Of a stretch of 40,341 nucleotides of DNA, positions 8,835 through 38,445 are shown piece by piece; position 1 is the stretch's first letter; each line of letters opens with the position of its first letter. The stretch is from an uncultured Pseudomonadales bacterium. GTDB lineage: Bacteria; Patescibacteriota; Microgenomatia; UBA1400; RBG-16-45-19. The position numbers and the translations under genes were made by a program. The notes below the pieces were generated by a model that saw only the letters and a list, made by a program, of their open reading frames with translations, did no database searches and was not told the origin of the DNA. Location: positions 4,949 through 45,289 of the forward strand of contig CAZKMY010000001.1 of the NCBI GenBank assembly GCA_964554085.1, read 5' to 3'.

Positions 8835-8932
8835 TTTCCCTCAGATTCTAGCAAATTCAGCGCGCAATCATCCAAAGCTGAGCTTGCCGAAGCTGAAGGG
8901 CGTGAGCACTGCAATTTGCGAATCGAGGGAAA
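8835..8932 (+). repeat. Long imperfect hairpin repeat, copy R1 (termini TTCAGCGCGCAATCA ... GAAGGGCGTGAGCACTGCAA)
   Basis: Outer stem is TTTCCCTC (8835-8842) with GAGGGAAA (8925-8932). The next stem is GATTC-ta-GCAAATT with AATTTGC-GAATC. The interior holds gctgagcttgccgaagctgaagggcgtgagcactgc. Confidence 0.75.
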
Positions 8933-10796: not shown

Positions 10797-11300
10797 ATGT
10801 TACGCAAAAAAATACAATTCTTTCGTTTACTCATTATCGGAATTGTTGTTGTTGGATCACTATCAAGTATCACAACTCCTGTTATTGCCCTCAGTGAGAG
10901 TACTTCCGAAGCAAGTACAAGTGGAGTTGGAGGTTCCTCAAGTTGGTCTCATACTGCTGATTTTGACATGTGTAAAGGGGTCTCTGATGCTGGATGTCGC
11001 GATTGTGTAGGGGAGGACTACAAACACATGTGGACCGCTCTTGGTTGCATTCCCACTGATCCTAAAGAATTTACGACCGCATTTTTAAGAATCTCTATTG
11101 GTGTAGCTGGAGGAATCGCTCTTCTTCTCATGGTTTATGGAGCTTTTCTTGTTTCGGTTTCTGCGGGTGACCCCAAAAAAGCTGATGAAGGTAAAGAGAT
11201 TATTACGGGTACCATTGCCGGACTTTTATTTATAATCTTTTCTGTCGTTCTCTTAAAGCTTATCGGCGTTGATATCCTTCAAATTCCGGGGTTGAAATAA
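10797..11300 (+). CDS. Pilin-like protein P1: Cys-containing ectodomain fused to a VirB2/TrbC-like two-helix hairpin
   Basis: ATG 10797 follows TATAAT (10782-10787) by 9 nt. It has a signal/anchor MLRKKIQFFRLLIIGIVVVG and 4 Cys in CKGVSDAGCRDCVGEDYKHMWTALGC. The C-terminus GGIALLLMVYGAFLVSVSAGDPKKADEGKEIITGTIAGLLFIIF matches the paralogue motif. Confidence 0.6.
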   Translation: MLRKKIQFFRLLIIGIVVVGSLSSITTPVIALSESTSEASTSGVGGSSSWSHTADFDMCKGVSDAGCRDCVGEDYKHMWTALGCIPTDPKEFTTAFLRISIGVAGGIALLLMVYGAFLVSVSAGDPKKADEGKEIITGTIAGLLFIIFSVVLLKLIGVDILQIPGLK

Positions 11301-11304
11301 TCCT

Positions 11305-11673
11305 ATGAAGAAAATCGCAAAAATTCTTTTTACTTTTTCTTTATTCCCTTTTTTTTCTCATCCTGTTCATGCCGAAGACACCGATATTACCGGAATGGTT
11401 TCTTCAGTTCCGGGATTCAAACCAATTCTCAACAGTCCAACGAATGTCATCAGCGAACTGCTTCCCTACGTATTGACCCTCGCTGGTCTTATCCTCTTTG
11501 GCATGCTCATCATGGGTGGTTTTGAAATTATGACTGCCGCCACTGATGCTAAAAAAGCTGACGCGGGCAAAGCCCGCATCACCACCGCTGTTATTGGTTT
11601 TGTGATCATTTTTGCCGCCTATTGGATTACTCAAATCCTTGAAATCATGACCGGTGTCTCCATCCTGAAATAA
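11305..11673 (+). CDS. Pilin-like protein P2 (VirB2/TrbC-like T4SS pilin family)
   Basis: 122 aa with signal peptide MKKIAKILFTFSLFPFFSHPVHA. Hairpin is GLILFGMLIMGGFEIMTAATDAKKADAGKARITTAVIGFVIIFAAYW. Confidence 0.65.
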   Translation: MKKIAKILFTFSLFPFFSHPVHAEDTDITGMVSSVPGFKPILNSPTNVISELLPYVLTLAGLILFGMLIMGGFEIMTAATDAKKADAGKARITTAVIGFVIIFAAYWITQILEIMTGVSILK

Positions 11674-11677
11674 TCCT

Positions 11678-12358
11678 ATGATTACTCCTCCACTTCAACA
11701 TATTGCCATTATTATGGATGGCAATCGTCGCTGGGCCAAAGCTCATGGATTACCTGCTGTCATGGGCCACAAAAAAGTGGTGGAGGAACGAGTTGAAGAA
11801 CTAATAGAACATGCGGGTAAACTCCATATTCCGTATATTACTTTCTGGGCCTTTAGTACCGAGAATTGGGATCGTGCTGAAGATGAGGTCTTGGGAATTA
11901 TGAATTTATTCCGTTGGGCATTTACTCACAAAGCCAAATCGCTTGTTGAAAAAGGGGCTAGGCTACGTGTAATTGGTGACATGTCTCGATTTGATCCAGA
12001 TATACGGCAAGGAATTGAAACCTGGATGGAAAAATCAAAAAAAAACACCGCTATCACCGTCACCTTTGCTCTAAATTATGGTGGTCGTGACGAAATTATT
12101 CGTGCAATCAACACACTCCCCAAAGATCAACCAGTCACCCAAGAAGAATTTGAAAAACAGCTAGACACTGCAGGAATGCCGGATCCTGACTTAATAATTC
12201 GAACGAGCGGTGAACAACGTTTATCTGGGTTTCTCCCCTGGCAATCTGTTTATAGTGAATTTTATTTCACTGACATTCTTATGCCAGATTTTGATACGCA
12301 TGCCTTTGATACTGCCCTTAGTGAATTCGCTACCCGCCAACGCCGCCACGGAAAATAA
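11678..12358 (+). CDS. uppS: Isoprenyl (undecaprenyl) diphosphate synthase
   Basis: 226 aa. Motifs are HIAIIMDGNRRWA and IRTSGEQRLSGFLPWQ. Confidence 0.9.
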   Translation: MITPPLQHIAIIMDGNRRWAKAHGLPAVMGHKKVVEERVEELIEHAGKLHIPYITFWAFSTENWDRAEDEVLGIMNLFRWAFTHKAKSLVEKGARLRVIGDMSRFDPDIRQGIETWMEKSKKNTAITVTFALNYGGRDEIIRAINTLPKDQPVTQEEFEKQLDTAGMPDPDLIIRTSGEQRLSGFLPWQSVYSEFYFTDILMPDFDTHAFDTALSEFATRQRRHGK

Positions 12359-13162
12359 CTAGTCATTTTCGATTCGCGTTCCTAATACTGGTTTTCCTTC
12401 AATCGCTTCCGACAATGTCCCATGTTCAATTCCATCAATAATTAAGCCTGGAATCCCCTGTTTTGCCAGTTCCAGTGTTTCATTCACCTTATGCTCCATC
12501 CCTCCCGTCACATCCGTTCCCCCCGAACCTCCAATAGCTGTCTGGTATTGATCAATCGTATTTGGGGTAATTACCTCAATTGTTTTCCCATTTTCGTCAT
12601 AAACACCATTGGTTTGGCCGCAGTGAATCATCCGCTCAATCACATATCCCTTTTCCTTCAAATGGAGTGCCAAATACCCGAGCACCATCTCAGTTGAAAA
12701 AATCGTACACCCCACCTGGGTATCAAGGATTTGATCTCCGTATAAAACTGGCAACAATCCCAAGCGAAGCGTCTCTTCAATACTACTGGTACAAATCGAC
12801 TGCAACTTGTGATTCTCCGCTACCATCGTTGAAAGGGGTGAAATCGATACTGCATTCACTCCCGCATTAAGGAGCGCTTTAATCACAATCCGATTCAACT
12901 GTGCTGCCACATCCGCTACCTCAGCAATCCCTCGATAACTCTCCTCATTCAGAATTCCTTTATGGGTTTGATATTTCTTTGCTGGTACATGGGCAAAACT
13001 CCCCGCTCCATGACCAACCACCAATTGCTTGCCACTGGCTTGCGCTTTTTTCACTTCATCACAAATGATTGACAGTGCCCGCTCCCGAACTGAAAACGGT
13101 TTATTCTTGTCTGTAATCAGCGACCCACCAATTTTGATAAATACCAATGGTTTTGTATCCAT
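12359..13162 (-). CDS. Isopentenyl phosphate kinase (amino-acid-kinase fold)
   Basis: 267 aa. Motifs are FIKIGGSLITDK, VVGHGAGSFAH and GGTDVTGGM. Its stop codon abuts the uppS stop with zero spacer. Confidence 0.7.
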   Translation of the reverse strand: MDTKPLVFIKIGGSLITDKNKPFSVRERALSIICDEVKKAQASGKQLVVGHGAGSFAHVPAKKYQTHKGILNEESYRGIAEVADVAAQLNRIVIKALLNAGVNAVSISPLSTMVAENHKLQSICTSSIEETLRLGLLPVLYGDQILDTQVGCTIFSTEMVLGYLALHLKEKGYVIERMIHCGQTNGVYDENGKTIEVITPNTIDQYQTAIGGSGGTDVTGGMEHKVNETLELAKQGIPGLIIDGIEHGTLSEAIEGKPVLGTRIEND

Positions 13163-13171
13163 AAGAGTTTT

Positions 13172-14173
13172 CTAAAATAAATGACTGTCAGTGAGGTGAG
13201 CTCCCTGACATGGTCGGTTAATAAATAATGTCTTCACTCCCTCCAACAAGGATAGTTTTTCTTTCAATGCATCACAATGTGCTTCCTCACAAATCACATG
13301 CACATTTGGTCCTGCGTCCATCGTAAAGTATCCCTCAATCCCTTCTTTTCGCCACTGTTGGAGTGATCTCACAATATCCAAGGTTGCGCCATTCCAATAG
13401 AAAATACCTGGAGTACTTGTCATACACACGGCATGGAGTGAAATCGCTTCTTCTTCAATGGTATTTCCCAACAAGGCCATATCTTTTGTCTGTAAAGCCT
13501 GCTTCACCCGTTGTATTCTCTCTGGTAATTCATTCAATCTCGAAGCAAATAAGGGGCTTGTTGCAGCAATCTTATGTCCGTCTGCAGATCCTGTTTGTTT
13601 TTCTTGCGCATCCACCACCACCACAATATCTACAAGTGGCCAATAATCTGCAGGGTACAAGCTTTCCGAATATGATGTCTCTGAACTAGTTCCCTTATGC
13701 CATAGTGTGAATCCATCACCAATTGAGCGACATGCTGATCCAGAACCAGCCAATCGAGTTAGTACCGATAATTCCTGCTCCGTTCCCTTCCAACCGCTTA
13801 CCTGAGCCAAGGCCATCGTCAATGCTGCAAAAGCTGACGCCGATGAAGCAATACCGGCACCCTGAGGAAATGTGTTTTGCGATACCACCCGGACAGTACT
13901 ATCTATATGCATCAATTCTCGAAACCGGTTCACCTGATTGATTACCCGGTCATACTGGGACCCGTTTACCCGTTCTCGTTTGCCTCCATAATACTGAATT
14001 TCTACCTCGTCTTCCAAAAACGACGTATCAAAAGCTACTGTTGTGGTAGTAAAACAATCCGACAAATTCATCGAAATCGTATCGCTAAAGGGCAAGATTA
14101 GTTGTTGATCCTGCTGCCCCCAATATTTAATGAAGGCAATGTTGGCTGGAGCAATGGCTGTAGCTTTTTTCAT
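13172..14173 (-). CDS. Mevalonate diphosphate / phosphomevalonate decarboxylase homologue (GHMP family)
   Basis: 333 aa. N-terminus is APANIAFIKYWG and the GHMP motif is PQGAGIASSASAFAAL. Confidence 0.8.
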   Translation of the reverse strand: MKKATAIAPANIAFIKYWGQQDQQLILPFSDTISMNLSDCFTTTTVAFDTSFLEDEVEIQYYGGKRERVNGSQYDRVINQVNRFRELMHIDSTVRVVSQNTFPQGAGIASSASAFAALTMALAQVSGWKGTEQELSVLTRLAGSGSACRSIGDGFTLWHKGTSSETSYSESLYPADYWPLVDIVVVVDAQEKQTGSADGHKIAATSPLFASRLNELPERIQRVKQALQTKDMALLGNTIEEEAISLHAVCMTSTPGIFYWNGATLDIVRSLQQWRKEGIEGYFTMDAGPNVHVICEEAHCDALKEKLSLLEGVKTLFINRPCQGAHLTDSHLF

Positions 14174-14176
14174 GAT

Positions 14177-14359
14177 CTAACATTCAACTTCCGGCCCACG
14201 TATATACGTTTCGTATATCTCAGGGTTAGCATCATACATTCTCTGCAATTCCTCAATTGTAAAACCGCACAAACCAATCTCTGCGACAGCGGCTGTGGTC
14301 AAATCACTTACTGCATTTTCCGCAACTTGCCCTTCTAAGCACTCCTGTTTTTGTGACAT
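14177..14359 (-). CDS. Small acidic hypothetical protein (60 aa)
   Basis: ATG 14357-14359 is preceded by GGAG at about 8 nt. The ORF ends 3 nt before the decarboxylase start, so it appears to be in the same operon. Confidence 0.4.
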   Translation of the reverse strand: MSQKQECLEGQVAENAVSDLTTAAVAEIGLCGFTIEELQRMYDANPEIYETYIRGPEVEC

Positions 14360-14423
14360 ATATTTCTCCAAAAAAATAAACGCTAAAACTCTAACTAACA
14401 CTTAGTCGTGTATTCTACCAAAA

Positions 14424-14684
14424 TCACTCACGTTGGCCAGCAATGATTGTGTTCAATATAGCTAACCAATACTTTTCTGCCCCCTCAACCGGAGGTCTTT
14501 TTTTTGCTTCTTCATCCAACTCTCTCACCAACGCTAATCCTTTATTTGGATTAAACGGACCCAAATTCGTACGACATTCAGGGCAAACATCTCGAGGGGG
14601 GAAAATAAACGTTCCGCAAGAACAGTGTTCGCCAACAAATTGAGTTTGTGCTTTCTGATTTCGCGCTAACCGTGCTACTTCCAT
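14424..14684 (-). CDS. Small zinc-ribbon protein (CxC...CPxC)
   Basis: 86 aa with HCSCGTFIFPPRDVCPECRT. This resembles the rubredoxin-like zinc ribbon found at the N-terminus of DUF35-type proteins. No obvious OB fold follows. Confidence 0.5.
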   Translation of the reverse strand: MEVARLARNQKAQTQFVGEHCSCGTFIFPPRDVCPECRTNLGPFNPNKGLALVRELDEEAKKRPPVEGAEKYWLAILNTIIAGQRE

Positions 14685-14712
14685 ACTCTACTAGTCGCGA
14701 GATTATTCCAAA

Positions 14713-15108
14713 TCACTCAACCTTATCTACTAATAATCCAACCGCAATTGGCCAATCAAACACCTCAATCGGTTTATCTCCTAGTTGATCAATTTGTTTT
14801 TTCGCCCTATATACAGTCGCTTCCGACACCCCAGCCAAACGCGCTACTTGTATATTTGTCGCTTCTGGATGAGATTCAAAACAACGAGCAATTATTCTTC
14901 TCTTAATTTCGGCTGGTTTTCGTAATTCACTTGGTAATTTTCCTTCCAAAACGGCTTGATTCAAAGCTCGATGAACCCCCGCCTCTGCAACATTGTTAGC
15001 CATCGCAACTGCCGCAATTTGTCCCGCATGCCTTAAAAAATCACTCACAATGGCGTCGCGAACTTCCGGAGAATAATGATCAAATTGAGTGGATTCTTTC
15101 ACGCCCAT
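14713..15108 (-). CDS. Small helix-turn-helix DNA-binding protein
   Basis: 131 aa. The HTH-like segment is TNIQVARLAGVSEATVYRAKKQ. It is divergent from the ECF sigma gene. Confidence 0.5.
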   Translation of the reverse strand: MGVKESTQFDHYSPEVRDAIVSDFLRHAGQIAAVAMANNVAEAGVHRALNQAVLEGKLPSELRKPAEIKRRIIARCFESHPEATNIQVARLAGVSEATVYRAKKQIDQLGDKPIEVFDWPIAVGLLVDKVE

Positions 15109-15145
15109 TTAGTCGCAAATTTCTTCAAAATCATTCTCTTTATTG

Positions 15146-15279
15146 TTTTGCAGATCGCTCATAAAGTTTTTTCAGCGCGCAATCACCTGCCTCGCCGGCA
15201 AGGCGGGTCCGAAGCTGAGCCTGCCGAAGCTGAAGGGCGTGAGCACTGCAAAAAAACGTATGTGCAAACTGCAAAAAAA
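15146..15279 (+). repeat. Long imperfect hairpin repeat, copy R2 (nested stems)
   Basis: Outer stem is TTTTGCAG (15146-15153) with CTGCAAAA (15269-15276). Inner stem is TTTTTTCAG (15167-15175) with CTG-c-AAAAAA (15246-15256). The interior has ttcagcgcgcaatca, then the GC hairpin cctgcctcgccggcaaggcggg (15186-15207), then gctgagcctgccgaagctgaagggcgtgagcactgc. Confidence 0.75.
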
Positions 15280-15287
15280 GATTGAGA

Positions 15288-15293
15288 TACAAT
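15288..15293 (+). promoter_or_regulatory. -10-like hexamer TACAAT, 6 nt upstream of the sigma-factor ATG (leaderless-type arrangement)
   Basis: gaTACAATaccccTATG. Confidence 0.35.
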
Positions 15294-15299
15294 ACCCCT

Positions 15300-15851
15300 A
15301 TGGAGAACTCCCAAAAAAATGATCAGGAAATAGTTGCCAGCCTTTTGGCCGGCGACAAAAAAGTCCTCCATCATTTTTATCATCAAGCCTCCAAAAAACT
15401 CCGTACCTATTTTCTTTTTCACACTGCAGATCCTCAGGACTGTGACGAACTTATCCAAGACACCTTCTTGCACTTTCTCGACGCCCTCCCCCTGTTTCAC
15501 TATCAATCCAGTCTCATGACCTTTATTACCAGTATTGCCCAGCATGAAGTCGCTGATTATTGGCGCAAAAAATACGCCAAACGGCTGATTCATACCATTC
15601 CTATTCTTAAAAATATTATTGCTCCCATCCAAACCTCCGAACGAACCGCTCTCAAATTTCATCAAGCATTAGAAACCACCTACCAACGGTTAAAACCTCA
15701 GCAATCTGCACTTCTCCGCATGAAGTATGAAGATGCCCTGAGTGTCAAAGAAATTGCCGCCAAACTAGGTTGGTCAACCAAAGCCGTCGAATGTCAGTTG
15801 TACCGTGCCCGCAAAGCCTTTCAGCTTGTCTATCAGGAACACAATACATGA
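15300..15851 (+). CDS. ECF-type sigma-70 family RNA polymerase sigma factor
   Basis: Start taken at ATG 15300 because the track start 15282 is TTG. Region 2 is DCDELIQDTFLHFL and region 4 is LSVKEIAAKLGWSTKAVECQLYRARKAF. Confidence 0.8.
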   Translation: MENSQKNDQEIVASLLAGDKKVLHHFYHQASKKLRTYFLFHTADPQDCDELIQDTFLHFLDALPLFHYQSSLMTFITSIAQHEVADYWRKKYAKRLIHTIPILKNIIAPIQTSERTALKFHQALETTYQRLKPQQSALLRMKYEDALSVKEIAAKLGWSTKAVECQLYRARKAFQLVYQEHNT

Positions 15852-16069
15852 CACACCCAAATTTTTGGCAACAAGTTGATCAACGTGTCAACGAAAACAA
15901 AACCATTATGCAAAGTGGTTTTTCTCCCAAACTTGCCCCTTCTCTTGCTTGGGTAGGCCTTCATTATTGGATTATTGGCAGTCTACTTTCGTTGTGCCTA
16001 ACAATCTGGGTGTATACCAATCACTATGCTGGCTTAATGCAAGCGATCAGGATCATGATATGGAGATAA
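15848..16069 (+). CDS. Small single-pass membrane protein, candidate anti-sigma factor
   Basis: ATG 15848 overlaps the sigma stop (ATGA). The 73-aa product has one TM helix (LAWVGLHYWIIGSLLSLCLTIWVY). Position and coupling are typical of anti-sigma partners; there is no sequence motif support. Confidence 0.4.
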   Translation: MTHPNFWQQVDQRVNENKTIMQSGFSPKLAPSLAWVGLHYWIIGSLLSLCLTIWVYTNHYAGLMQAIRIMIWR

Positions 16070-16431
16070 ATACAAATCATGACTCAAGACTTATGACTCA
16101 ACACTTAACACTATCCTGGTCCTACTGGTTTGGCAGCCGCACCCAAGGATTAATTATTCATCCCTACATCACCATGCGCGAAATTGTTCGCGAACATTTT
16201 CTTCGTCCCCTCACCTTCATCCCCACCGTTATCTGGATTATCTCCTGGATAGCAGCCATGATAATCGGCAGAATTGGCTTGTTTTTTAATCTCCATCTTC
16301 AAACCTGGACTATTCCGGTCGGAAAAAGCCTCGTCTTCGCCTGGTGCTGGCTTTCTTGGTTTTTACTCCTTTGGCAAATCCTTCTTAGCTATCTTTATCT
16401 TCGTTTTCGTTTTTTACCAAATCGGACCTAA
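16060..16431 (+). CDS. Membrane protein (123 aa, about 3 TM), unknown function
   Basis: ATG 16060 overlaps the previous ORF by 10 nt in another frame. The N-terminus is encoded by the GACTYA-type element. Confidence 0.45.
   Translation: MEINTNHDSRLMTQHLTLSWSYWFGSRTQGLIIHPYITMREIVREHFLRPLTFIPTVIWIISWIAAMIIGRIGLFFNLHLQTWTIPVGKSLVFAWCWLSWFLLLWQILLSYLYLRFRFLPNRT
16078..16112 (+). repeat. Pseudo-tandem element, GACTYA subfamily
   Basis: catgactcaagacttatgactcaacacttaacact, read as HDSRLMTQHLTL. It is related to the elements at 36607-36640 and 38142-38173. Confidence 0.65.
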
Positions 16432-16440
16432 AACACGTGA

Positions 16441-16494
16441 TTTTAGGAGCGCAAGGCGGGTCTGAGTGAAACGAAGGCGTGAGCACTGCAAAAC
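16441..16494 (+). repeat. Hairpin repeat, short diverged copy R3
   Basis: ttttaggagcgcaaggcgggtctgagtgaaacgaaggcgtgagcactgcaaaa. Confidence 0.65.
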
Positions 16495-16527
16495 TATATG
16501 GAAAACAATTCAAAAACCTTTCCCCCC

Positions 16528-16557
16528 TTGATCCAGAAAGTCGCTCCCTGGTAAAAT
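16528..16557 (+). promoter_or_regulatory. Candidate sigma-70-type promoter of the pilin array (TTGATC-18 nt-TAAAAT with upstream TGg)
   Basis: cTTGATCcagaaagtcgctcccTGgTAAAATtc. It lies 21 nt upstream of ATG 16578, with aGGAt in between. Confidence 0.45.
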
Positions 16558-16577
16558 TCAAAATATAGGATAAAACT

Positions 16578-16877
16578 ATGGATCTTGGATCAACTTTTTT
16601 TGGTGACAACGCCATTCAGTCGAGTGGATACACTCACAATTTCTCTGGCCTCATTTCTTCTATTCTCCCCACGTTCCTCATTGTCGCTGGATTCATTCTT
16701 TTTATCTACCTTGTATTTGGCGGCTTTATGATGATTTCAGCATCAGGCGATGAGAAGAAAACTGCTGAAGGCCAACAAGCCTTGACCAATGCTATAATTG
16801 GCTTTGTTATTATCTTCGCCAGTTACTGGATTATTCAGATTATTGAAGTAGTGTCTGGTGTAGGAATTGTTAACTAA
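16578..16877 (+). CDS. Pilin-like protein P3
   Basis: 99 aa. Hairpin is FILFIYLVFGGFMMISASGDEKKTAEGQQALTNAIIGFVIIFASYW. Confidence 0.65.
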   Translation: MDLGSTFFGDNAIQSSGYTHNFSGLISSILPTFLIVAGFILFIYLVFGGFMMISASGDEKKTAEGQQALTNAIIGFVIIFASYWIIQIIEVVSGVGIVN

Positions 16878-16881
16878 AACT

Positions 16882-17220
16882 ATGGCATCACCATTTGGTT
16901 CCATCACTACTCCCATCACAGGTTACAAAGATCTCCAAGGAGGAGGACTTATTGACTTTATCTCCAATATTGTCAAGCTTGTTACAATCGGTGCCGGCCT
17001 CTTTGCGTTCATCAATCTCATCATCGCTGGATTTATATATATTTCCGCAGGATCAGATGCTAAAAAAACTACTGAAGCATGGTCAAAAATCTACATGAGC
17101 TTGATCGGTCTCGTTGTCATCGTCTCTTCGTATGCACTAGCCGGAATCATTGGTATGGTTGTTTTCAAAGACCCCACTGCCATTCTTTCCCCAAAAATCT
17201 ATGGACCAGGAGGAAATTAA
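16882..17220 (+). CDS. Pilin-like protein P4
   Basis: Start at ATG 16882 sits in the same taaaactatgg context as P3. Hairpin is LFAFINLIIAGFIYISAGSDAKKTTEAWSKIYMSLIGLVVIVSSY. Confidence 0.6.
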   Translation: MASPFGSITTPITGYKDLQGGGLIDFISNIVKLVTIGAGLFAFINLIIAGFIYISAGSDAKKTTEAWSKIYMSLIGLVVIVSSYALAGIIGMVVFKDPTAILSPKIYGPGGN

Positions 17221-17223
17221 CCC

Positions 17224-17619
17224 ATGATTTCTTCATTCTTACTCGCCCAAGCTGATGGAAAAGGTATCGGTACCGTCACCGGAATTGGTGCCTTTGTCCC
17301 AGTTGAAGCAAAGGGAACAGGTTTTACTTCATCAGGTACGGTTAATGAACTTTTCAGCGTTGTTATCAGTTTTCTTACCATTGTTGGAGGTTTATCTTTT
17401 CTCATCTACTTCCTTTTAGGGGGACTTAATTGGATATTGGCCGGTGGTGATGAGAAAAAAGTTGAAGTTGCCAAAAGTTATATGACCAATGGAGCTATTG
17501 GTTTGATTATTATCATTGGTTCATACGCTATCATATCGATTGTCGGAACCATTCTCGGCATCGAAATCATGAATCCCGGGCATTTACTCGATCAATTATT
17601 TTACAAGTCAGTAATTTAA
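17224..17619 (+). CDS. Pilin-like protein P5
   Basis: 131 aa. Hairpin is LSFLIYFLLGGLNWILAGGDEKKVEVAKSYMTNGAIGLIIIIGSY. Confidence 0.65.
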   Translation: MISSFLLAQADGKGIGTVTGIGAFVPVEAKGTGFTSSGTVNELFSVVISFLTIVGGLSFLIYFLLGGLNWILAGGDEKKVEVAKSYMTNGAIGLIIIIGSYAIISIVGTILGIEIMNPGHLLDQLFYKSVI

Positions 17620-17626
17620 GGCGGAT

Positions 17627-17959
17627 ATGTTACTTGCGGGCGGTGGAACCTCATACAGTTCAATTCAAAATCGAGCTATTACGAAGTATGGTGTTGGTGA
17701 CGGTGGCCAAAACCTAGGTCAGTTCATTGGTGACCTATATCGTGCTTGCGTCATGCTTGGCGGCATTGCCCTTCTCCTCTATCTTGCCTGGGGCGGCCTT
17801 AATTGGATTACTGCCGCCGGGGACGAGAAAAAAGTCGAAGTTGCCAAAGATCGAATTACCCACGCCTTTATTGGTATGGCTGTGCTTGTTGGCACCGCCG
17901 CCATCGCCAATCTTGCTGGCAAATTATTTGGTATGGATTTACTCAATCCATCATTCTAA
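17627..17959 (+). CDS. Pilin-like protein P6
   Basis: 110 aa. Hairpin is IALLLYLAWGGLNWITAAGDEKKVEVAKDRITHAFIGMAVLVG. The loop is nearly identical to that of P5. Confidence 0.65.
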   Translation: MLLAGGGTSYSSIQNRAITKYGVGDGGQNLGQFIGDLYRACVMLGGIALLLYLAWGGLNWITAAGDEKKVEVAKDRITHAFIGMAVLVGTAAIANLAGKLFGMDLLNPSF

Positions 17960-17977
17960 CTTGGAGTTATTAAGCAT

Positions 17978-18274
17978 ATGGCTAGTACAATCAAAATCCC
18001 CATCGAAGCCAACATTGGCAAAGACGTCCCCATGGACGCCGGCGCATATATCTCCAACATCGTCAATTTCATGCTCATTATTGCCGCCATCGCCACTTTT
18101 GGCTATCTCGTCTGGGGCGGCTTCAATTTTATGACCGCTTCAGGAGATTCAAAAAAAGTTGAACAGGCTCAACATAGAATCAGTAATGCACTCCTCGGTC
18201 TTGCCATTTGTGCTCTCTCTTGGGCCATCTTTCTCGTTGCCAACAACTTCTTTGGTTTAGGAGTGGTGAGATAA
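17978..18274 (+). CDS. Pilin-like protein P7
   Basis: 98 aa with GGAG 12 nt upstream. Hairpin is IATFGYLVWGGFNFMTASGDSKKVEQAQHRISNALLGLAICALSW. Confidence 0.65.
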   Translation: MASTIKIPIEANIGKDVPMDAGAYISNIVNFMLIIAAIATFGYLVWGGFNFMTASGDSKKVEQAQHRISNALLGLAICALSWAIFLVANNFFGLGVVR

Positions 18275-18275
18275 T

Positions 18276-18305
18276 TTGACATCTCTGGCACCAGATTAGT
18301 AAAAT
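18276..18305 (+). promoter_or_regulatory. Near-consensus sigma-70 promoter (TTGACA-18 nt-TAAAAT) for P8
   Basis: TTGACAtctctggcaccagattagTAAAAT, starting 2 nt after the P7 stop. Confidence 0.55.
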
Positions 18306-18326
18306 ATCAATTAACAATATTGCATG

Positions 18327-18368
18327 TAACTCGTACTTGTTTCTTGTTACTTGTTACTTGTATCTAAT
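18327..18368 (+). repeat. Pyrimidine-rich element, CTTGT subfamily, in the P8 5' leader
   Basis: taactcgtacttgtttcttgttacttgttacttgtatctaat. It shares cttgtttcttgtYacttgtatctaa with 5349-5383. Confidence 0.7.
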
Positions 18369-18386
18369 TATAAGGAGATAGTAATC

Positions 18387-18761
18387 ATGAAGAAATTTGC
18401 CCCCCTCGCCTCTTTGGCTGGACTCGTTGCTGCCGTCACCCCCGCTTTTGCGGTCGATGGTGTCAGTGTTCCCGCTCCCTCAGGATTTCAAATCACTGAT
18501 CTTGGCTTATTTATCAGTAAGGCTATCAGTGTCGCTTTAGTTATTGCCGCCATCCTTGTATTCGTCTACCTCGTCTGGGGTGGCTTACAATGGATCACCT
18601 CTGGTGGTGACAAGGGTAAAACTGAAGAAGCTCGTAACCGTATTACCGCCGCGTTGGTTGGTTTAGCCATTGTTGCGTGTGCTTGGGCCCTCATCCAACT
18701 CATCTCCAGTTTCTTTGGCATCGACATTGTCAACGGCGCCAAAAACATGAAGGCCTACTAG
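18387..18761 (+). CDS. Pilin-like protein P8, candidate major pilin
   Basis: ATG 18387 is preceded by AAGGAG (18372-18377). Signal peptide is MKKFAPLASLAGLVAAVTPAFA. Hairpin is ILVFVYLVWGGLQWITSGGDKGKTEEARNRITAALVGLAIVACAW. It has its own promoter and terminator. Confidence 0.7.
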   Translation: MKKFAPLASLAGLVAAVTPAFAVDGVSVPAPSGFQITDLGLFISKAISVALVIAAILVFVYLVWGGLQWITSGGDKGKTEEARNRITAALVGLAIVACAWALIQLISSFFGIDIVNGAKNMKAY

Positions 18762-18788
18762 GCTTTCTACAATTCTGTTAAAAAACAA

Positions 18789-18821
18789 CCCTCCGAAGCT
18801 TCATGCGTAGGGGGGTTTTTT
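18789..18821 (+). terminator. Rho-independent terminator after P8
   Basis: CCCTCC (18789-18794), then a 15-nt loop, then GGGGGG (18810-18815, one G-U pair), followed by TTTTTT. Confidence 0.55.
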
Positions 18822-18825
18822 ATAG

Positions 18826-18831
18826 TAAAAT
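18826..18831 (+). promoter_or_regulatory. -10-like hexamer TAAAAT, 6 nt upstream of the P9 ATG
   Basis: agTAAAATagtcccATG. The layout matches that at 27597-27611. Confidence 0.35.
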
Positions 18832-18837
18832 AGTCCC

Positions 18838-19215
18838 ATGAAAACAAGGTTAAAAATATCTTTCTTTCTACTTTCTACGTTCTACTTTCTGCTCGTCACC
18901 TCTCCCGTTCGCGCCGCTTGGGAAAAAGTTCAAGATGGCGACGTCGCTACTTTTGGCAGCTTGAGTAGCCTATTCACTAATATCTTAAGTATTACCTTGC
19001 GTCTGGTTGGCATTAGCATGTTTATTATGATTGTGGTCGGAGGGTTCAAATACCTCACTGCAGGGGGTGATTCCAAAGCCACCGAAGCCGCCCAAGGTAC
19101 CATCACCAACGCCATTATTGGCCTTGTTCTCGCCATCATGGCTTGGTTTATTCTTCTTGCCATCAAAGGGTTTACTGGTGTCGACGTCACAAAATTTAAC
19201 ATCATCACCCAATAA
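18838..19215 (+). CDS. Pilin-like protein P9
   Basis: 125 aa with signal peptide MKTRLKISFFLLSTFYFLLVTSPVRA. Hairpin is ISMFIMIVVGGFKYLTAGGDSKATEAAQGTITNAIIGLVLAIMAW. Confidence 0.65.
   Translation: MKTRLKISFFLLSTFYFLLVTSPVRAAWEKVQDGDVATFGSLSSLFTNILSITLRLVGISMFIMIVVGGFKYLTAGGDSKATEAAQGTITNAIIGLVLAIMAWFILLAIKGFTGVDVTKFNIITQ
18859..18892 (+). repeat. Pyrimidine-rich pseudo-tandem element (CTACTTTCT type) forming the P9 signal-peptide core
   Basis: tctttctttctactttctacgttctactttctgc, read as SFFLLSTFYFLL. Confidence 0.5.
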
Positions 19216-19222
19216 ATCGGTT

Positions 19223-21898
19223 ATGCCAAACTACCGTATTATCAAACTCTTCGCCTTCAGTAGCATTCTTGTTACCTGTCATCTCCTCTTCTCCAGTCCT
19301 GCACACGCCATTCAAGCGAAATGTGATACCCCCGATATCGATTACAAAGGTCCTTTTGCCACTTTATTTAAAGGAGCAGGAGCCAGCAGCAAAGACTGCT
19401 CCGTCCCCGATCCAGAAAATCCCGACCTTCCTGTCAACAAAGAGGTTATAGATAGTGGAAGAGTTTTTTGCAACAAAGGTTATCTTGAAGCCTCATTTCA
19501 TGGAAAAGATCCCAAAAATGTAAATCCAGCTGGAAAACAAGGTAAAGGCAATGTGTCGCTCAACGATGTCAGCACCTATGCCATGGGAGGAAATATTTTA
19601 GCCAATCTGAATAGTGAAGATAACGACAGACTTACTGCCTTTAAACGTGCCATTGAAGCGGTCGAAAATTACAATCGATCATCAATTTATCGTGTTGCCT
19701 ATTACGAGGGGGTGCGCACCTTTGATGGAGTTGAAGCTTGGGCCAAAAACAAACCCGGTCTCACCATTGATGGTCACCTCAATCCCTCCATTTTTGGTAC
19801 TGCTCAAACTCAAACCACGCTTGAATATCAGGTTAAAGATATTGAATTGACTGTGAGTGAAATTTATGACTGCAACTATGTTGATGGGTATGCTTCAACA
19901 CATCGCTGCAGTCCCGACTATTTCACCAAAAAAGGAGAGGATGAGCGCGCCTCAGATATTGCCAAAGAAATCGGTGCAATTCTTAAAGCCGACAACCTTA
20001 TGGAAACATGGGGTAATCTTACTGGTCCCCAGCAGTTTAAGGCCGCCTCACTTCACATTACACGCTCCAGTCCCACGTTCGTTGTCTTTGTTCCCGCCAA
20101 TGTCATGTGTTCGGGCAGTTATCTTTCCTGCGCTTTTCAGTGGTTGATGCAAAAACTAAGCGCAAACTATACATTAGCCGAAGAACCCGTTCCCTATTAC
20201 ATTGAGGCTATTCTTCCAGAATCAGCCAACATACTTGGCGGGATTAATGAAGAATACAACCGTTTTAATGCGCTGTCTGAAAATACTGCCCCTCCTCACG
20301 CATCAAGTCCGGCGGCCAACCTTTCCGCCAATGCCAACAATGTTGTCATTGATACGCAAAATATCGCTCCCTCAACCCTCCTTGCCAGTGTCGACGGCCC
20401 CTCAGCAGGAGAAGGTCCAAATGGGGGAACTGAAGTTCACGTCCAGGCGACAGGCGATAAAATGCTTGATGCACTTCTCAACCGTGTTATCAAATCATGT
20501 CCTGATTGTGGGTGCGGCACCATCGACAAAACCAATAATTACGGCTCCACCGCTGATGCGACAAAGAATAAAAACAACATTTTTTGGACTTTTATTCAAG
20601 ATGCTTTAAGTGCGCTGCAGGCAGGCGAAAAAATGGAGTTGTACCACATCTATACCATTTCCCCTCCCGACATTGTGGCTGCCAATAAACGTATCTCCGA
20701 AGATAAAAACTCCATGCTTCGAAAATTCATGCCGCTGGCTGACACCAACAGCAATCCGTACACAGGATTTGAGACTGAAATATACGTCGATCAAGATCTT
20801 TCAGGTAAAAGTGATGGTGAAACTAAACCGTCTCAGCCACATTGGTATGGTGAATACGAAACGATTCGAAATGATGATGGTAGCGTCACGGTTCAGAAAA
20901 AAATGATCATTGATTATTACACCTATCATGTCGGCACAGGCGAAATTACCCAGCCAGGGGGAAATATTACCAGTTATGTGGTAAAAAACAGGATTGGTAG
21001 CAATCGGCCACTTAACAGTTATGACAATTTTAATAGCAACAACCCGACAGGAAAAAGTGATCGGTGTTACTACGAGGATTTTATCCAGCCACTCGCTATG
21101 TCAAATGGGTTTGATATTGCCAAAAAAACCAAAGCAGATCAATTCCCTCAATCTTCTTGCGAGGACCCTATCAAACCAGGAATAGCTAAAGAAATCCTCT
21201 CCTGCACCCAGCAGCAAGAAATTCCTATCAAAGCAGAATGCCAACTCACCTGTGACTCATTCAATGGCTATACCATTCCCCCCTCACTTAAAAAAACCAT
21301 CGAACAAGCCGCTTCAGCGTTTAATATTCCTCCCGGACTATTATTAGGCGCCATGTATGCTGAAGGTGGTTTCGAACCCCGTTGTTCCGGCAGTGACAAC
21401 AGCTATTCTGACGACGAAATTCAAGCCATGCTTCAGTGCGACGCCACTTCCTGCTGTAATGGGAACGCGGGCCCATTCAGTCTTATTTCAGGATACGCAA
21501 AGAAAGCTATCTACCAAGCCAAGACTCGCGCCGGACTCACGGTAGATGAGAATAATCCTGGAAATGCGTGCAATATTTTCGACAGTGCACTGGCCATAGC
21601 CGACGTTATCAGTCGCCAACGCGGGTACAACAGTACGTTATGGTACAACACCGCCATGCAAGTGTGGTCAAGTCTTCCCGCTCGTCAAATTGAAGGAATT
21701 ACCAAAGCGGATGAAAAAATCGATTCATGCGGCGGTATTCCTTACACCAATCAGTCCACGTATAGTTGTCGTGGCTGGACCGACAGTCAAGCAGTAACCG
21801 CCATTCGACTTCAACAAGGATTTTGTGGTAATGGCAATAAATGGATGGATATACACCGTCAACAAATGCTGGACGTCTTTCATCAATGCAGTCAATAA
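19223..21898 (+). CDS. Large secreted Cys-rich protein with a C-terminal lytic-transglycosylase-like (VirB1/SLT-like) segment
   Basis: ATG 19223 gives the signal peptide MPNYRIIKLFAFSSILVTCHLLFSSPAHA; 891 aa. The C-terminal segment FNIPPGLLLGAMYAEGGFEP ... GPFSLI resembles SLT motifs I and II. The upstream track extension overlaps P9 and is rejected. Confidence 0.55.
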   Translation: MPNYRIIKLFAFSSILVTCHLLFSSPAHAIQAKCDTPDIDYKGPFATLFKGAGASSKDCSVPDPENPDLPVNKEVIDSGRVFCNKGYLEASFHGKDPKNVNPAGKQGKGNVSLNDVSTYAMGGNILANLNSEDNDRLTAFKRAIEAVENYNRSSIYRVAYYEGVRTFDGVEAWAKNKPGLTIDGHLNPSIFGTAQTQTTLEYQVKDIELTVSEIYDCNYVDGYASTHRCSPDYFTKKGEDERASDIAKEIGAILKADNLMETWGNLTGPQQFKAASLHITRSSPTFVVFVPANVMCSGSYLSCAFQWLMQKLSANYTLAEEPVPYYIEAILPESANILGGINEEYNRFNALSENTAPPHASSPAANLSANANNVVIDTQNIAPSTLLASVDGPSAGEGPNGGTEVHVQATGDKMLDALLNRVIKSCPDCGCGTIDKTNNYGSTADATKNKNNIFWTFIQDALSALQAGEKMELYHIYTISPPDIVAANKRISEDKNSMLRKFMPLADTNSNPYTGFETEIYVDQDLSGKSDGETKPSQPHWYGEYETIRNDDGSVTVQKKMIIDYYTYHVGTGEITQPGGNITSYVVKNRIGSNRPLNSYDNFNSNNPTGKSDRCYYEDFIQPLAMSNGFDIAKKTKADQFPQSSCEDPIKPGIAKEILSCTQQQEIPIKAECQLTCDSFNGYTIPPSLKKTIEQAASAFNIPPGLLLGAMYAEGGFEPRCSGSDNSYSDDEIQAMLQCDATSCCNGNAGPFSLISGYAKKAIYQAKTRAGLTVDENNPGNACNIFDSALAIADVISRQRGYNSTLWYNTAMQVWSSLPARQIEGITKADEKIDSCGGIPYTNQSTYSCRGWTDSQAVTAIRLQQGFCGNGNKWMDIHRQQMLDVFHQCSQ

Positions 21899-21966
21899 TA
21901 TCTTCTAAAAACGATTATCTTTCTCCTAGCGCCACACCATCATATGTTTTATAATACGGCGGTACT

Positions 21967-23652: not shown

Positions 23653-23703
23653 AAGGGCTAAAGAGTTCTTTGAATTTAAAGAAATTTTCAAGAATCAGCA
23701 TTC

Positions 23704-38382: not shown

Positions 38383-38389
38383 AAATATA

Positions 38390-38445
38390 GTCTTCCATAC
38401 TTCCCATACTTCTATACCTCCCATACTTCCCTGTATACTATCCCC
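38390..38445 (+). repeat. Pyrimidine-rich pseudo-tandem element (CATACTTCC type) filling the rnhA-virB4 spacer
   Basis: gtcttccatacttcccatacttctatacctcccatacttccctgtatactatcccc. The -10-like TATACT (38434-38439) lies 6 nt before ATG 38446. Confidence 0.65.

What the first reader, a model, noticed from the sequence alone, without database searches (positions are those of the whole stretch)
10797..19215. Nine-member family of two-helix hairpin pilin paralogues, seven in a head-to-tail array
All nine ORFs end with the same architecture. A hydrophobic helix ends in GG(F/L), followed by a short polar loop (A/S)(A/S/G)GD-x-KK-x-(E/D)-x-(A/G), then a second helix I(I/V)G(L/F)(V/I)(I/L) and a short tail. 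Examples are GGFMMISASGDEKKTAEGQQALTNAIIGFVIIF (P3) and GGLQWITSGGDKGKTEEARNRITAALVGLAIV (P8).

The N-terminal parts are unrelated in length and sequence. P2, P8 and P9 have classic cleavable signal peptides. P3, P6 and P7 have none. P1 carries a ~90-aa ectodomain with 4 Cys. P5 and P6 share a nearly identical loop (GGLNW..GDEKKVEVAK), which implies recent duplication or gene conversion.

Nine distinct pilin-like subunits for one apparatus is unusual. It suggests a heteropolymeric fibre, tip or minor subunits, or a repertoire for host or antigenic specificity.
Basis: partly seen in the sequence, partly recalled or inferred. Interest (0 to 1): 0.8.

Follow-up and report, generated by a model that had tools for sequence, protein, structure and literature searches.

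The report
Secretion-system pilin gene array in Patescibacteria

Summary
Exactly nine + strand ORFs share a two-helix hairpin. All nine hit Pfam PF18895 (T4SS_pilin), seven above the curated cut-off. Most pairs are significantly similar by BLASTP, and every ORF has at least one pair at E<=5e-5.

The window is the oriC region of a Microgenomatia (Chisholmbacteria-related) genome. It also encodes PrgI/VirB3-like and TrsD-like proteins, a candidate VirB6 and an M23 hydrolase. A VirB4 ATPase gene runs off the 3' end, so the ORF list missed it.

Arrays of 2-11 divergent VirB2-like pilins near dnaA in Patescibacteria are already published (PMC12102498; PMC10633639 shows that a pilin series is essential).

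New here:
- The seven-gene array is conserved one-to-one in three relatives and evolves under strong purifying selection (dN/dS 0-0.12 where measurable).
- It splits into two units. P3-P8 ends at a terminator, and P8 is the likely major subunit.
- P9 heads an ~8.6 kb hypervariable, recombining island (P9, an 891-aa protein, the VirB6-like protein, a 1144-aa protein).
- P5/P6 are old sister paralogues, not a recent duplication.
- Natural fused multi-hairpin proteins exist.

Verdict: new member of a known kind, moderate-low interest.

The parts
10797..11300 (+). P1. T4SS_pilin-like paralogue with a signal-peptide-like N-terminus and a 4-Cys ectodomain. It is the first gene of the separate P1-P2 pair, which lies upstream of uppS.
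   Evidence: PF18895 E 3.2e-5, 24.3 bits, just below the gathering score. HMM of the nine gives 100 bits. Sequence read.
11305..11673 (+). P2. T4SS_pilin paralogue with a classic signal peptide (MKKIAKILFTFSLFPFFSHPVHA|ED). Its closest paralogue is P3 (49% identity).
   Evidence: PF18895 8.5e-10 and TrbC PF04956 7e-4. BLASTP against P3 gives 8.5e-21. A pilin-uppS junction is conserved in L011.
15282..15851 (+). ECF-type sigma factor (context). It is conserved next to the pilin array in relatives.
   Evidence: Sigma70_r2 and r4_2 domains. Orthologues lie beside the arrays in L007, L008 and L011.
15848..16069 (+). 73-aa single-TM protein whose start overlaps the sigma stop (ATGA). It is a candidate anti-sigma factor (context).
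   Evidence: ORF. A 73-aa orthologue lies in the same position in L011 (51% identity).
16528..16557 (+). Sigma-70-like promoter with an extended -10 element (TTGATC-18-TGgTAAAAT), upstream of P3.
   Evidence: Promoter scan. The same elements are conserved upstream of the first pilin gene in L011.
16578..16877 (+). P3. Pilin paralogue without a signal peptide.
   Evidence: PF18895 3.6e-9. Orthologues are 80% (L007), 69% (L011) and 35% (L008) identical.
16882..17220 (+). P4. Pilin paralogue without a signal peptide. The listed ORF opens at TTG 16867, but ATG 16882 matches the orthologues.
   Evidence: PF18895 1.9e-7. 98% identical in L013 and 84% in L011.
17224..17619 (+). P5. Pilin paralogue without a signal peptide, and sister paralogue of P6.
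   Evidence: PF18895 4.3e-5, 24.0 bits. BLASTP against P6 gives 4.8e-18. Natural fusions in P5-P6 order exist: P0135 and P0145.
17627..17959 (+). P6. Pilin paralogue without a signal peptide.
   Evidence: PF18895 6.9e-9. Hairpin dN/dS is 0.01 against L007.
17978..18274 (+). P7. Pilin paralogue without a signal peptide. Its closest paralogue is P8 (47% identity).
   Evidence: PF18895 1.6e-10. dN/dS is 0.006-0.03.
18276..18305 (+). Best sigma-70-like promoter match in 10.3-22 kb (TTGACA-18-TAAAAT, 11 of 12), directly upstream of P8.
   Evidence: Promoter scan. It is followed by AAGGAG 8 nt before the P8 ATG.
18387..18761 (+). P8. Pilin paralogue with a classic signal peptide (…TPAFA|VDG). It is the candidate major subunit.
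   Evidence: PF18895 7.3e-10. Identical or 98-99% identical protein across strains whose DNA differs by 8%. It is the most conserved member against L008 (61%). 735 homologues at E<=1e-5. AF2 hairpin model.
18789..18821 (+). Intrinsic terminator (CCCUCC…GGGGGG stem followed by U6) that ends the P3-P8 unit. It is also the left edge of the hypervariable island.
   Evidence: RNA fold. A hairpin plus T-run occupies the same place in L011. Strain similarity stops at 18844.
18838..19215 (+). P9. Pilin paralogue with a signal peptide. It is the first gene of the variable unit P9-X891-X561.
   Evidence: PF18895 2.1e-9. Alleles of 137, 119 and 123 aa exist in strains that share P8. A recombination breakpoint lies inside P9 in L007.
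19223..21898 (+). X891. Secreted 891-aa protein with no known domain, starting 7 nt after P9. It is hypervariable between strains.
   Evidence: No Pfam, NCBIfam or PDB hit. 99.9% identical in L007, 51% in L004, and no detectable similarity to the 813-aa protein in L001/L013.
21967..23652 (+). X561. Polytopic membrane protein and candidate VirB6/TrbL-like channel subunit.
   Evidence: The L008 orthologue (32% identity) has a weak TrbL_4 hit at 7.4e-4. 45-56% identical between strains.
23704..27138 (-). X1144. Large protein with no known domain, in the hypervariable island. Syntenic proteins in relatives show no detectable similarity.
27609..30062 (+). 817-aa protein with a C-terminal M23 peptidase domain. 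It is a VirB1-type cell-wall hydrolase candidate.
   Evidence: Peptidase_M23 2.1e-9. A syntenic M23 gene is present in L011.
31055..32146 (+). PrgI (VirB3-like) protein with a C-terminal CarboxypepD_reg-like domain.
   Evidence: PF12666 PrgI at 2.3e-7, above the cut-off.
32167..32841 (+). TrsD-like protein, resembling the N-terminal domain of VirB4.
   Evidence: NCBIfam TrsD 5.1e-7 and VirB4_plasma 1e-8, both below the family cut-offs.
38446..40341 (+). VirB4-type ATPase gene. The frame is open to the end of the window, so the gene is incomplete and was not listed by the ORF tool.
   Evidence: Open frame 38383-40341. P-loop_TraG 6.8e-26, AAA_10 6.8e-11 and DUF87 2e-10. Walker A motif GSGKS.

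Best explanation
The nine ORFs are paralogous VirB2-like membrane hairpin proteins (Pfam T4SS_pilin). They belong to the chromosomal type IV secretion system of a Patescibacteria (Microgenomatia, Chisholmbacteria-related) bacterium. This system flanks oriC and resembles the conjugation machinery of Gram-positive bacteria.

Shown:
- Family membership.
- The two-helix hairpin.
- Linkage to VirB4, PrgI/VirB3, TrsD, a VirB6-like candidate and an M23 hydrolase.
- The seven tandem genes are an old, fixed set with one orthologue per position in relatives.
- P3-P8 are under strong purifying selection.
- A terminator after P8 and a recombination boundary separate P3-P8 from P9 and its downstream genes.

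Inferred:
- Each protein inserts with its N- and C-termini outside and the GD-x-KK turn on the cytoplasmic side. P1, P2, P8 and P9 would insert after signal-peptide cleavage. P3-P7 would insert by tail translocation.
- The VirB4/VirB3/VirB6 machine then uses the proteins to build a pilus-like surface structure that contacts the host cell.
- The paralogues have distinct, non-redundant roles. P8 is the major subunit: it has its own strong promoter, a Shine-Dalgarno sequence and a terminator, and it is the most conserved member against the most distant relative, L008. P3-P7 are minor, priming or base subunits.
- P9 is an adaptor co-transcribed with, and co-inherited with, a strain-variable cassette (the 891-aa secreted protein and the VirB6-like protein). 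That cassette may set partner specificity.
For: Family and similarity: PF18895 hits for all nine, significant pairwise BLASTP, and exactly nine members in the window. AF2 gives a confident hairpin.

T4SS context:
- PrgI.
- TrsD.
- VirB4.
- A weak TrbL_4 hit on the orthologue of X561.
- dnaA, dnaN, rnpA and yidC lie nearby, matching the published oriC-proximal arrangement (PMC12102498).

Taxon: the closest named genome is Ca. Chisholmbacteria.

Fixed heptad: 7 tandem genes in L007, L008 and L011. Best hits run along the diagonal.

Purifying selection:
- P5-P8 have dS of 0.4-0.7 with dN/dS of 0-0.03.
- Against L007, P3 is 0.12, P6 0.06, P7 0.03 and P8 0.03.
- P4-P8 are 97-99% identical in protein at 90% DNA identity.

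Unit structure: promoters and the terminator. Similarity breaks at 18844 or inside P9.

Non-redundancy: fused multi-hairpin proteins, including fusions in P5-P6 order, argue that neighbouring hairpins act together.

Function in relatives: Tn-seq in Southlakia shows that its T4SS pilin series is essential (PMC10633639).
Against: - No filament made of these proteins has been seen in any Patescibacterium. 'Pilin' rests on remote homology.
- PF04956 (TrbC/VirB2) hits are below threshold, at 20.2 bits at best against a cut-off of 27.9.
- Neither a profile search of PDB sequences nor Foldseek recovers solved VirB2/TraA pilins.
- Covalently fused proteins with 6 to about 17 hairpins are hard to reconcile with subunit-by-subunit extraction into a fibre.
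- Five of the nine lack a signal peptide.
- The case for P8 as major subunit rests only on expression signals and conservation. At the depth of L011, P4 (84%) is more conserved than P8 (74%).
- The P8 strain comparisons were ascertained by exact P8 identity.
- The promoter match upstream of P8 is not conserved in L011.
Confidence: 0.6

Rival explanations
1. The hairpins are not fibre subunits. They form a membrane-embedded hetero-oligomer (a ring, platform or channel lining) of the T4SS, with the paralogues packed side by side in a fixed order.
For: - Natural single-chain proteins carry 2-12 or more hairpin domains (17 matched stretches in P0134). Each has one N-terminal signal peptide and no cleavage-like linkers: P0121 has 6, P0134 about 17.
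- Fusions occur in the same order as the array (P5-P6).
- The number (7) and order are fixed.
- Hairpins evolve more slowly than the N-terminal parts in P3, P5 and P6; in P7 and P8 both parts are near-invariant.
- No structural match to solved pilins was found.
Against: - The domain is homologous to TrbC/VirB2, though only weakly. Some homologues carry both PF18895 and PF04956 hits.
- The fused proteins could be processed, or could be assembly or gene-calling artefacts. I could not inspect their DNA.
- The variable, exposed N-terminal tails and P1's Cys-rich ectodomain suggest surface display.
Confidence: 0.22
2. The array is a repertoire of interchangeable alternative major pilins used for antigenic variation or host-range switching, as proposed for the Bartonella Trw trwL and Anaplasma virB2 paralogues.
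For: - The N-terminal parts differ completely between paralogues. They evolve faster than the hairpins: dN of 0.2-0.55 against 0.01-0.12 for P3, P5 and P6.
- P9 exists as at least three very different alleles in strains that share P8.
- The literature raises this idea for Patescibacteria (PMC12102498).
Against: - Each position has its own orthologue in genomes as distant as 61% P8 identity.
- Copy number is constant at 7 in three relatives.
- P4-P8 are 97-100% identical in protein between strains with 8-13% DNA divergence.
- Pairwise dN/dS of each N-terminal part is 0.53 or less where measured.
- There are no silent or partial copies and no long repeats that could drive switching.
Confidence: 0.1
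3. The shared motif is only a generic TM-loop-TM composition, or the ORFs are unrelated small membrane proteins such as holins, and the T4SS linkage is accidental.
For: - The proteins are short hydrophobic hairpins.
- Foldseek finds only generic helical hairpins.
- Cell-wall hydrolase genes (M23, SpoIID-like) lie nearby.
Against: - Composition-corrected BLASTP E-values reach 1e-21.
- A curated Pfam model is matched above its threshold by 7 of 9.
- 17,751 representative clusters match at E<=1e-10.
- Synteny with T4SS genes is conserved in relatives and in 1,135 published assemblies.
Confidence: 0.02

Closest known systems
VirB2-like pilin arrays of the Patescibacteria T4SS (Quinonero-Coronel et al. 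2025, PMC12102498; the essential pilin series of Southlakia epibionticum ML1, Wang et al. 2023, PMC10633639; the review PMC12857230 counts 6 pilins in that locus)
   Same: - Same Pfam family (PF18895).
- Tandem arrangement.
- Low identity between members: 25% on average and 54% at most in the published arrays, 17-50% here.
- Chromosomal location near dnaA, dnaN and rnpA.
- Association with VirB4, TrsD and PrgI.
- Enrichment in Microgenomatia.
- Array sizes of 7 and 2 fall within the published range of 2-11.
   Different: Nothing categorical. The features added here are not stated in the passages of those papers that I read:
- Strict positional orthology of the heptad.
- Strong purifying selection.
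- The split into a conserved P3-P8 unit and a recombining P9-led cassette.
- VirB4 lies about 19 kb (about 16 genes) away, on the other side of oriC.
TrbC/VirB2 conjugative pilins of Gram-negative T4SS (Pfam PF04956; A. tumefaciens VirB2, RP4 TrbC, F TraA)
   Same: - A small protein with two hydrophobic helices joined by a short charged turn.
- A signal peptide in some members.
- Encoded with virB3/virB4-type genes.
- Weak HMM similarity (P2 7e-4, P4 3.7e-3).
   Different: - The PF04956 scores are below the family threshold.
- The host has a single membrane.
- Five members lack a leader peptide.
- Nine paralogues replace the usual one gene.
- No VirB5 tip protein was recognised.
- No pilus has been demonstrated.
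Tandem virB2/trwL paralogue arrays in Bartonella (Trw) and Anaplasma phagocytophilum
   Same: Several tandem VirB2-type genes serve one T4SS. The proposed link is to host-surface specificity.
   Different: From my own knowledge, those arrays are lineage-specific amplifications, and they are thought to diversify surface contact. Here the paralogues are old, have fixed positions and are under purifying selection.
Mbov_0395-family pilin-like conjugal transfer protein of Mycoplasma ICEs (NCBIfam NF045849)
   Same: P8 matches this model (1.1e-6, 28.2 bits). The TrsD-like ORF matches the neighbouring Mbov_0397 VirB4 model. Both are systems of single-membrane bacteria.
   Different: The score is below the model's cut-off of 40. 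From my own knowledge, the ICE carries one such gene.

Membership tests
Pfam PF18895 T4SS_pilin | Match to the family HMM at or above the gathering score (26.6 bits) | tested here: met
   Seven of the nine score 31.5-41.3 bits. P1 (24.3) and P5 (24.0) are just below, but they are tied to the others by BLASTP (P1-P3 5e-5, P5-P6 4.8e-18) and by the nine-member HMM.
Pfam PF18895 T4SS_pilin | Two hydrophobic helices joined by a short polar turn | tested here: met
   Hydropathy peaks. AF2 models P8 with helices 38-71 and 76-110 at pLDDT >90.
Patescibacteria VirB2 array (PMC12102498) | Two or more pilin genes in tandem, or separated by one non-pilin gene | tested here: met
   P3-P9 are seven consecutive genes and P1-P2 are two.
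Patescibacteria VirB2 array (PMC12102498) | Host genome is Patescibacteria | tested here: met
   The closest named genomes are a Ca. Chisholmbacteria MAG and a 'Patescibacteria group bacterium'. Synteny extends to a 755-kb contig with the same gene order.
Patescibacteria VirB2 array (PMC12102498) | T4SS genes nearby (virB4 within about 20 coding sequences; TrsD, PrgI) | tested here: met
   VirB4 at 38446->40341, about 16 genes after P9. PrgI at 31055. TrsD at 32167.
Patescibacteria VirB2 array (PMC12102498) | Members highly divergent (mean about 25%, maximum 54% identity) | tested here: met
   17-50% identity over the 70-residue core.
TrbC/VirB2 pilin (Pfam PF04956) | Match to the family HMM at or above the gathering score (27.9 bits) | tested here: not met
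   The best scores are P2 at 20.2 bits (7e-4) and P4 at 17.9 bits. Some P8 homologues do carry a precomputed PF04956 hit.
TrbC/VirB2 pilin (Pfam PF04956) | Fold resembles solved VirB2/TraA pilins | tested here: inconclusive
   Foldseek against the PDB gave no match at E<=0.001, only generic hairpins. A profile search of PDB sequences gave nothing relevant.
TrbC/VirB2 pilin (Pfam PF04956) | Polymerises into an extracellular conjugative pilus | not testable with these tools
   This needs microscopy or biochemistry. The papers read here treat a VirB2-type pilus in Patescibacteria only as a possibility.
Bartonella Trw-type amplified pilin array | Recent lineage-specific tandem amplification with variable copy number | tested here: not met
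   Positional orthologues exist in L007, L008 and L011, with 7 copies in each. There are no long DNA repeats among the copies.
Type IV pilus (T4P) pilins | Class III prepilin leader (G|F/M-x-x-x-E) followed by a single N-terminal hydrophobic helix | tested here: not met
   Direct reading of the nine sequences shows no such leader. Each protein has two C-terminal hydrophobic helices.

The most novel reading that the evidence does not exclude
The seven conserved paralogues are obligate, ordered parts of one heteromeric assembly, and in some organisms they are fused into a single chain. This would be the first heteromeric VirB2-type structure. Whether it is a fibre with a defined base-to-tip order or a membrane ring is left open. 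The last member, P9, would couple the assembly to an ~8.6 kb cassette (P9, X891, the VirB6-like protein and X1144) that is swapped by recombination between strains and would set which host cell the epibiont can engage.
Probability: 0.3. Interest if true: 0.6.

Novelty: new member of a known kind. Interest (0 to 1): 0.3.

Why it matters
The Patescibacteria T4SS is essential for epibiotic growth in the one species tested, and nobody knows what it transports or what its many 'pilins' build. This locus adds no new category, but it gives a clean, well-conserved case in Microgenomatia with testable predictions:
- P8 is the major subunit.
- P3-P7 are non-redundant minor subunits.
- P9 belongs to a recombining cassette that is a candidate determinant of host specificity.

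The fused multi-hairpin relatives offer a handle on whether these proteins form a fibre at all.

Tried and rejected
- Foldseek of the P8 model against the PDB and a profile search of PDB sequences gave no informative hit. A two-helix hairpin is too simple for these searches.
- Pfam, NCBIfam and PDB searches of X891, X561, X1144, X326 and X145 found nothing. The VirB6 assignment of X561 therefore rests on a weak hit to its orthologue.
- Exact-protein look-ups of P9 and the TrsD-like protein found no contig. The window's own contig was not recovered.
- A homologue search with P5, meant to find P5-P6 fusions whose DNA could be inspected, returned only single-domain proteins. The fusions remain unverified at DNA level.
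- Rfam and tRNA scans of the window were empty.
- Recent P5/P6 duplication is rejected.
- A role for the ECF sigma factor as the direct regulator of P3-P7 is not supported. The conserved promoter upstream of P3 looks sigma-70-like with an extended -10 element.
- The repeated 21-nt motif is not a simple promoter, because two of its four copies lie where no + strand gene follows.
- My first script for signal-peptidase sites was faulty. The signal-peptide calls rest on reading the sequences.

Full report
**1. Observation**

| ORF | Coordinates |
|---|---|
| P1 | 10797-11300 |
| P2 | 11305-11673 |
| P3 | 16578-16877 |
| P4 | 16882-17220 (listed ORF opens at TTG 16867) |
| P5 | 17224-17619 |
| P6 | 17627-17959 |
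| P7 | 17978-18274 |
| P8 | 18387-18761 |
| P9 | 18838-19215 |

The similarity is genuine homology.
- All nine match Pfam PF18895 (T4SS_pilin). Seven exceed the curated cut-off, and P1 and P5 fall 2-3 bits below it.
- BLASTP with composition correction gives E of 1e-4 to 1e-21 for most pairs.
- An HMM of the nine recovers exactly these nine from all six-frame segments of the window. The next hit has E=0.19.
- Hydropathy shows two hydrophobic segments in each protein. P1, P2, P8 and P9 have an extra N-terminal signal-peptide-like segment (sequences).
- AlphaFold2 with a 51-sequence alignment models P8 as a signal helix, a disordered linker and two long helices (38-71 and 76-110, pLDDT >90) joined by the SGGD turn.

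- P1 and P4 deviate from the GG motif.
- P1's mature ectodomain is about 65 aa (4 Cys confirmed).
- P4 and P5 also lack signal peptides.
- P5 and P6 are only 40% identical in protein and 55% in DNA over the core.

**2. Context**

The window is the replication-origin region of a small genome.
- Housekeeping genes nearby are rnpA-yidD-yidC-jag, dnaA and dnaN.
- T4SS genes surround the origin:
  - PrgI/VirB3-like at 31055-32146.
  - TrsD-like at 32167-32841.
  - An M23 hydrolase at 27609-30062.
  - A polytopic 561-aa protein whose orthologue has a weak TrbL_4 hit.
- A VirB4 ATPase gene occupies a frame open from 38383 to the window end. The ORF tool does not list ORFs that run off an end. It scores P-loop_TraG 6.8e-26.
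- Between the two pilin clusters lie uppS, isopentenyl-phosphate-kinase-like and mevalonate-decarboxylase genes, an HTH gene and an ECF sigma factor with a small overlapping membrane protein.
- The nearest named genome is a Ca. Chisholmbacteria MAG, class Microgenomatia.

**3. What is already known**

Quinonero-Coronel et al. 2025 (PMC12102498) searched 3,035 Patescibacteria genomes with PF18895 and PF04956.
- They report 441 arrays of 2-11 VirB2-like genes in 383 assemblies.
- The arrays are especially common in Microgenomatia and Saccharimonadia.
- Mean identity between members is 25% and the maximum is 54%.
- T4SS genes often lie near dnaA, dnaN, rnpA and rpmH.
- Chisholmbacteria genomes are in their dataset.

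Wang et al. 2023 (PMC10633639) showed by Tn-seq that the pilin series in the Southlakia T4SS cluster is essential. A 2025 review repeats this and speculates about a pilus-like conduit (PMC12857230). The kind of feature is therefore published, and this window fits it on every criterion I could test.

**4. What the tools add**

(a) The array is a fixed, old set.
- Seven tandem pilin genes occur in L007 (same species), L008 (Chisholmbacteria, P8 61% identical) and L011 (755-kb contig, P8 74% identical). L010 has six.
- Best hits follow the diagonal against L007 and L011, and mostly against L008, where P7's best hit is the P8 orthologue: each window paralogue otherwise has its own orthologue at the same position.
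- Against L011 the pilins are 55-84% identical. Housekeeping neighbours are in the same range (uppS 87%, MVD 69%, sigma 72%).

(b) Selection is purifying.
- Against strain contigs with 8-13% DNA divergence, P4-P8 are 97-100% identical in protein. dS is 0.4-0.7 and dN/dS is 0-0.03.
- Against L007, dN/dS is 0.12 for P3, 0.06 for P6, 0.03 for P7 and 0.03 for P8.
- The N-terminal parts of P3, P5 and P6 change faster than their hairpins.
- Caveat: the first set of contigs was found by exact P8 identity. L007, L011 and L013 were not.

(c) The array is two units.
- A conserved extended -10 promoter precedes P3.
- Gaps between P3 and P7 are 3-18 nt.
- The best promoter match in 12 kb, plus AAGGAG, precedes P8.
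- A hairpin plus U6 terminator follows P8, and one is also present in L011.
- P9 starts a new unit and is followed after 7 nt by X891.

(d) The terminator coincides with a recombination boundary.
- L013 is 89.9% identical to the window over 16777-18844. Beyond that it loses similarity:

| Gene or region | Similarity in L013 |
|---|---|
| P9 | 72%, hairpin only |
| X891 | none |
| X561 | 49% |
| X1144 | none |
| 27496-27603 | 78% DNA identity (weak return) |

- L004 has P8 at 371/372 nt identical but P9 at 74.5%.
- L007 shows the opposite pattern. It is 80-90% identical up to mid-P9 and about 100% from about 18900 to 23000.
- At least three cassette alleles therefore circulate behind a conserved P3-P8 block.

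(e) The family is very large. The nine-member profile finds 86,268 representative clusters at E<=1e-3 and 17,751 at E<=1e-10.
- The top hits are single polypeptides with 2-12 or more hairpin domains.
- One has six near-identical repeats behind one signal peptide (P0121).
- One 1775-aa protein has about 17 repeats (P0134).
- Two-domain proteins occur in P5-P6 order (P0135, P0145).
- The topology is consistent, because each hairpin starts and ends outside.
- I could not inspect their DNA, so artefacts are not excluded.

**5. Mechanism**

Shown: family, fold, T4SS linkage, fixed heptad, purifying selection, unit structure and the variable cassette.

Inferred:
- The hairpins sit in the membrane with the GD-x-KK turn inside.
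- The VirB4/VirB3/VirB6 machine uses them to build a pilus-like surface structure.
- P8 is the major subunit.
- P3-P7 have distinct minor roles.
- P9 links the structure to the strain-variable X891/VirB6-like cassette.

The main rival is a membrane-embedded hetero-oligomer rather than a fibre. The fused proteins favour that rival, and no filament has ever been observed. The antigenic-repertoire reading fits P9 at most. Chance similarity is excluded.

**6. Verdict**

The finding is real and correctly assigned in broad terms, but it is a new member of a published kind. The claims of unusualness and of a recent P5/P6 duplication do not hold. Interest is moderate-low (0.3). The heteromeric-assembly and swappable-cassette reading is the most novel possibility left open.

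Noticed in passing
window 18844-27496: This is a hypervariable island. In strains whose P4-P8 genes are about 90% identical in DNA and 97-99% in protein, P9 is replaced by diverged alleles. X891 and X1144 are replaced by proteins of similar size with no detectable similarity. The VirB6-like X561 is only 45-49% identical. Breakpoints lie at the P8 terminator (L001, L004, L013) or inside P9 (L007). At least three cassette alleles were seen.
   Followed up: yes
window 38383-40341 (+): A VirB4-type ATPase gene (P-loop_TraG 6.8e-26) runs off the 3' end of the window and is therefore absent from the ORF listing. It lies on the far side of dnaA/oriC from the pilins.
   Followed up: yes
proteins P0121, P0134, P0135, P0145 and about 145 others: Public data hold single polypeptides made of 2 to about 17 tandem T4SS_pilin-like hairpins, including fusions in P5-P6 order. 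If real, they argue that neighbouring hairpins work together and are not extracted one by one. Their DNA and taxa could not be checked with the tools allowed.
   Followed up: partly
window 8896-8916, 15233-15253, 16473-16493, 32907-32927 (all + strand): A 21-nt motif, GAAGGCGTGAGCACTGCAAAA, occurs four times with a conserved AGCGAAG-rich 5' flank (0.01 matches expected for the 18-nt core). One copy lies upstream of the ECF sigma gene and one upstream of P3. The other two lie in intergenic spots where no + strand gene follows. A copy is kept upstream of P3 in L007, and a degenerate one upstream of sigma in L011. Its function is unknown.
   Followed up: partly
window 15282-16431; L008 7239-7802; L011 7046-8135: An ECF sigma factor, an overlapping 73-aa single-TM protein (candidate anti-sigma factor) and a further small membrane protein are conserved directly upstream of the pilin array in all relatives examined. 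In L008 the orientation is reversed.
   Followed up: partly
window 18387-18761 and 32167-32841: P8 matches NCBIfam NF045849 (Mbov_0395 pilin-like protein of Mycoplasma ICEs, 1.1e-6). The TrsD-like ORF matches the neighbouring Mbov_0397 VirB4 model (1e-8). This hints that VirB2-like hairpins are native to T4SS of single-membrane bacteria rather than borrowed from Gram-negative systems.
   Followed up: no
L007 (CAZKZW010000037.1): This 8-kb contig belongs to the same species as the window (X891 99.9% identical) but is filed in a MAG labelled 'uncultured Pseudomonadales bacterium'. This is probably a binning error. L009, with a P8 orthologue, sits in an 'Omnitrophota' MAG.
   Followed up: no
window 11678-14173; L011 290-6888: Isoprenoid genes (uppS, an isopentenyl-phosphate-kinase-like gene and mevalonate diphosphate decarboxylase, plus thiolase, HMG-CoA synthase and reductase in relatives) lie between the P1-P2 pair and the main array. 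uppS starts 4 nt after P2. The pilin-uppS junction is conserved in L011.
   Followed up: partly
window 31055-32146: The PrgI/VirB3-like protein carries a long Pro/Ser/Thr-rich linker and a C-terminal CarboxypepD_reg-like (Ig-like) domain. That is not typical of VirB3 proteins.
   Followed up: no
window P3, P4, P6 versus L008_1, L008_2, L008_4: The Chisholmbacteria orthologues of P3, P4 and P6 carry signal peptides. The window's copies and those of L011 do not, and there is no room upstream for one. The leader is therefore dispensable or was lost in this lineage.
   Followed up: partly
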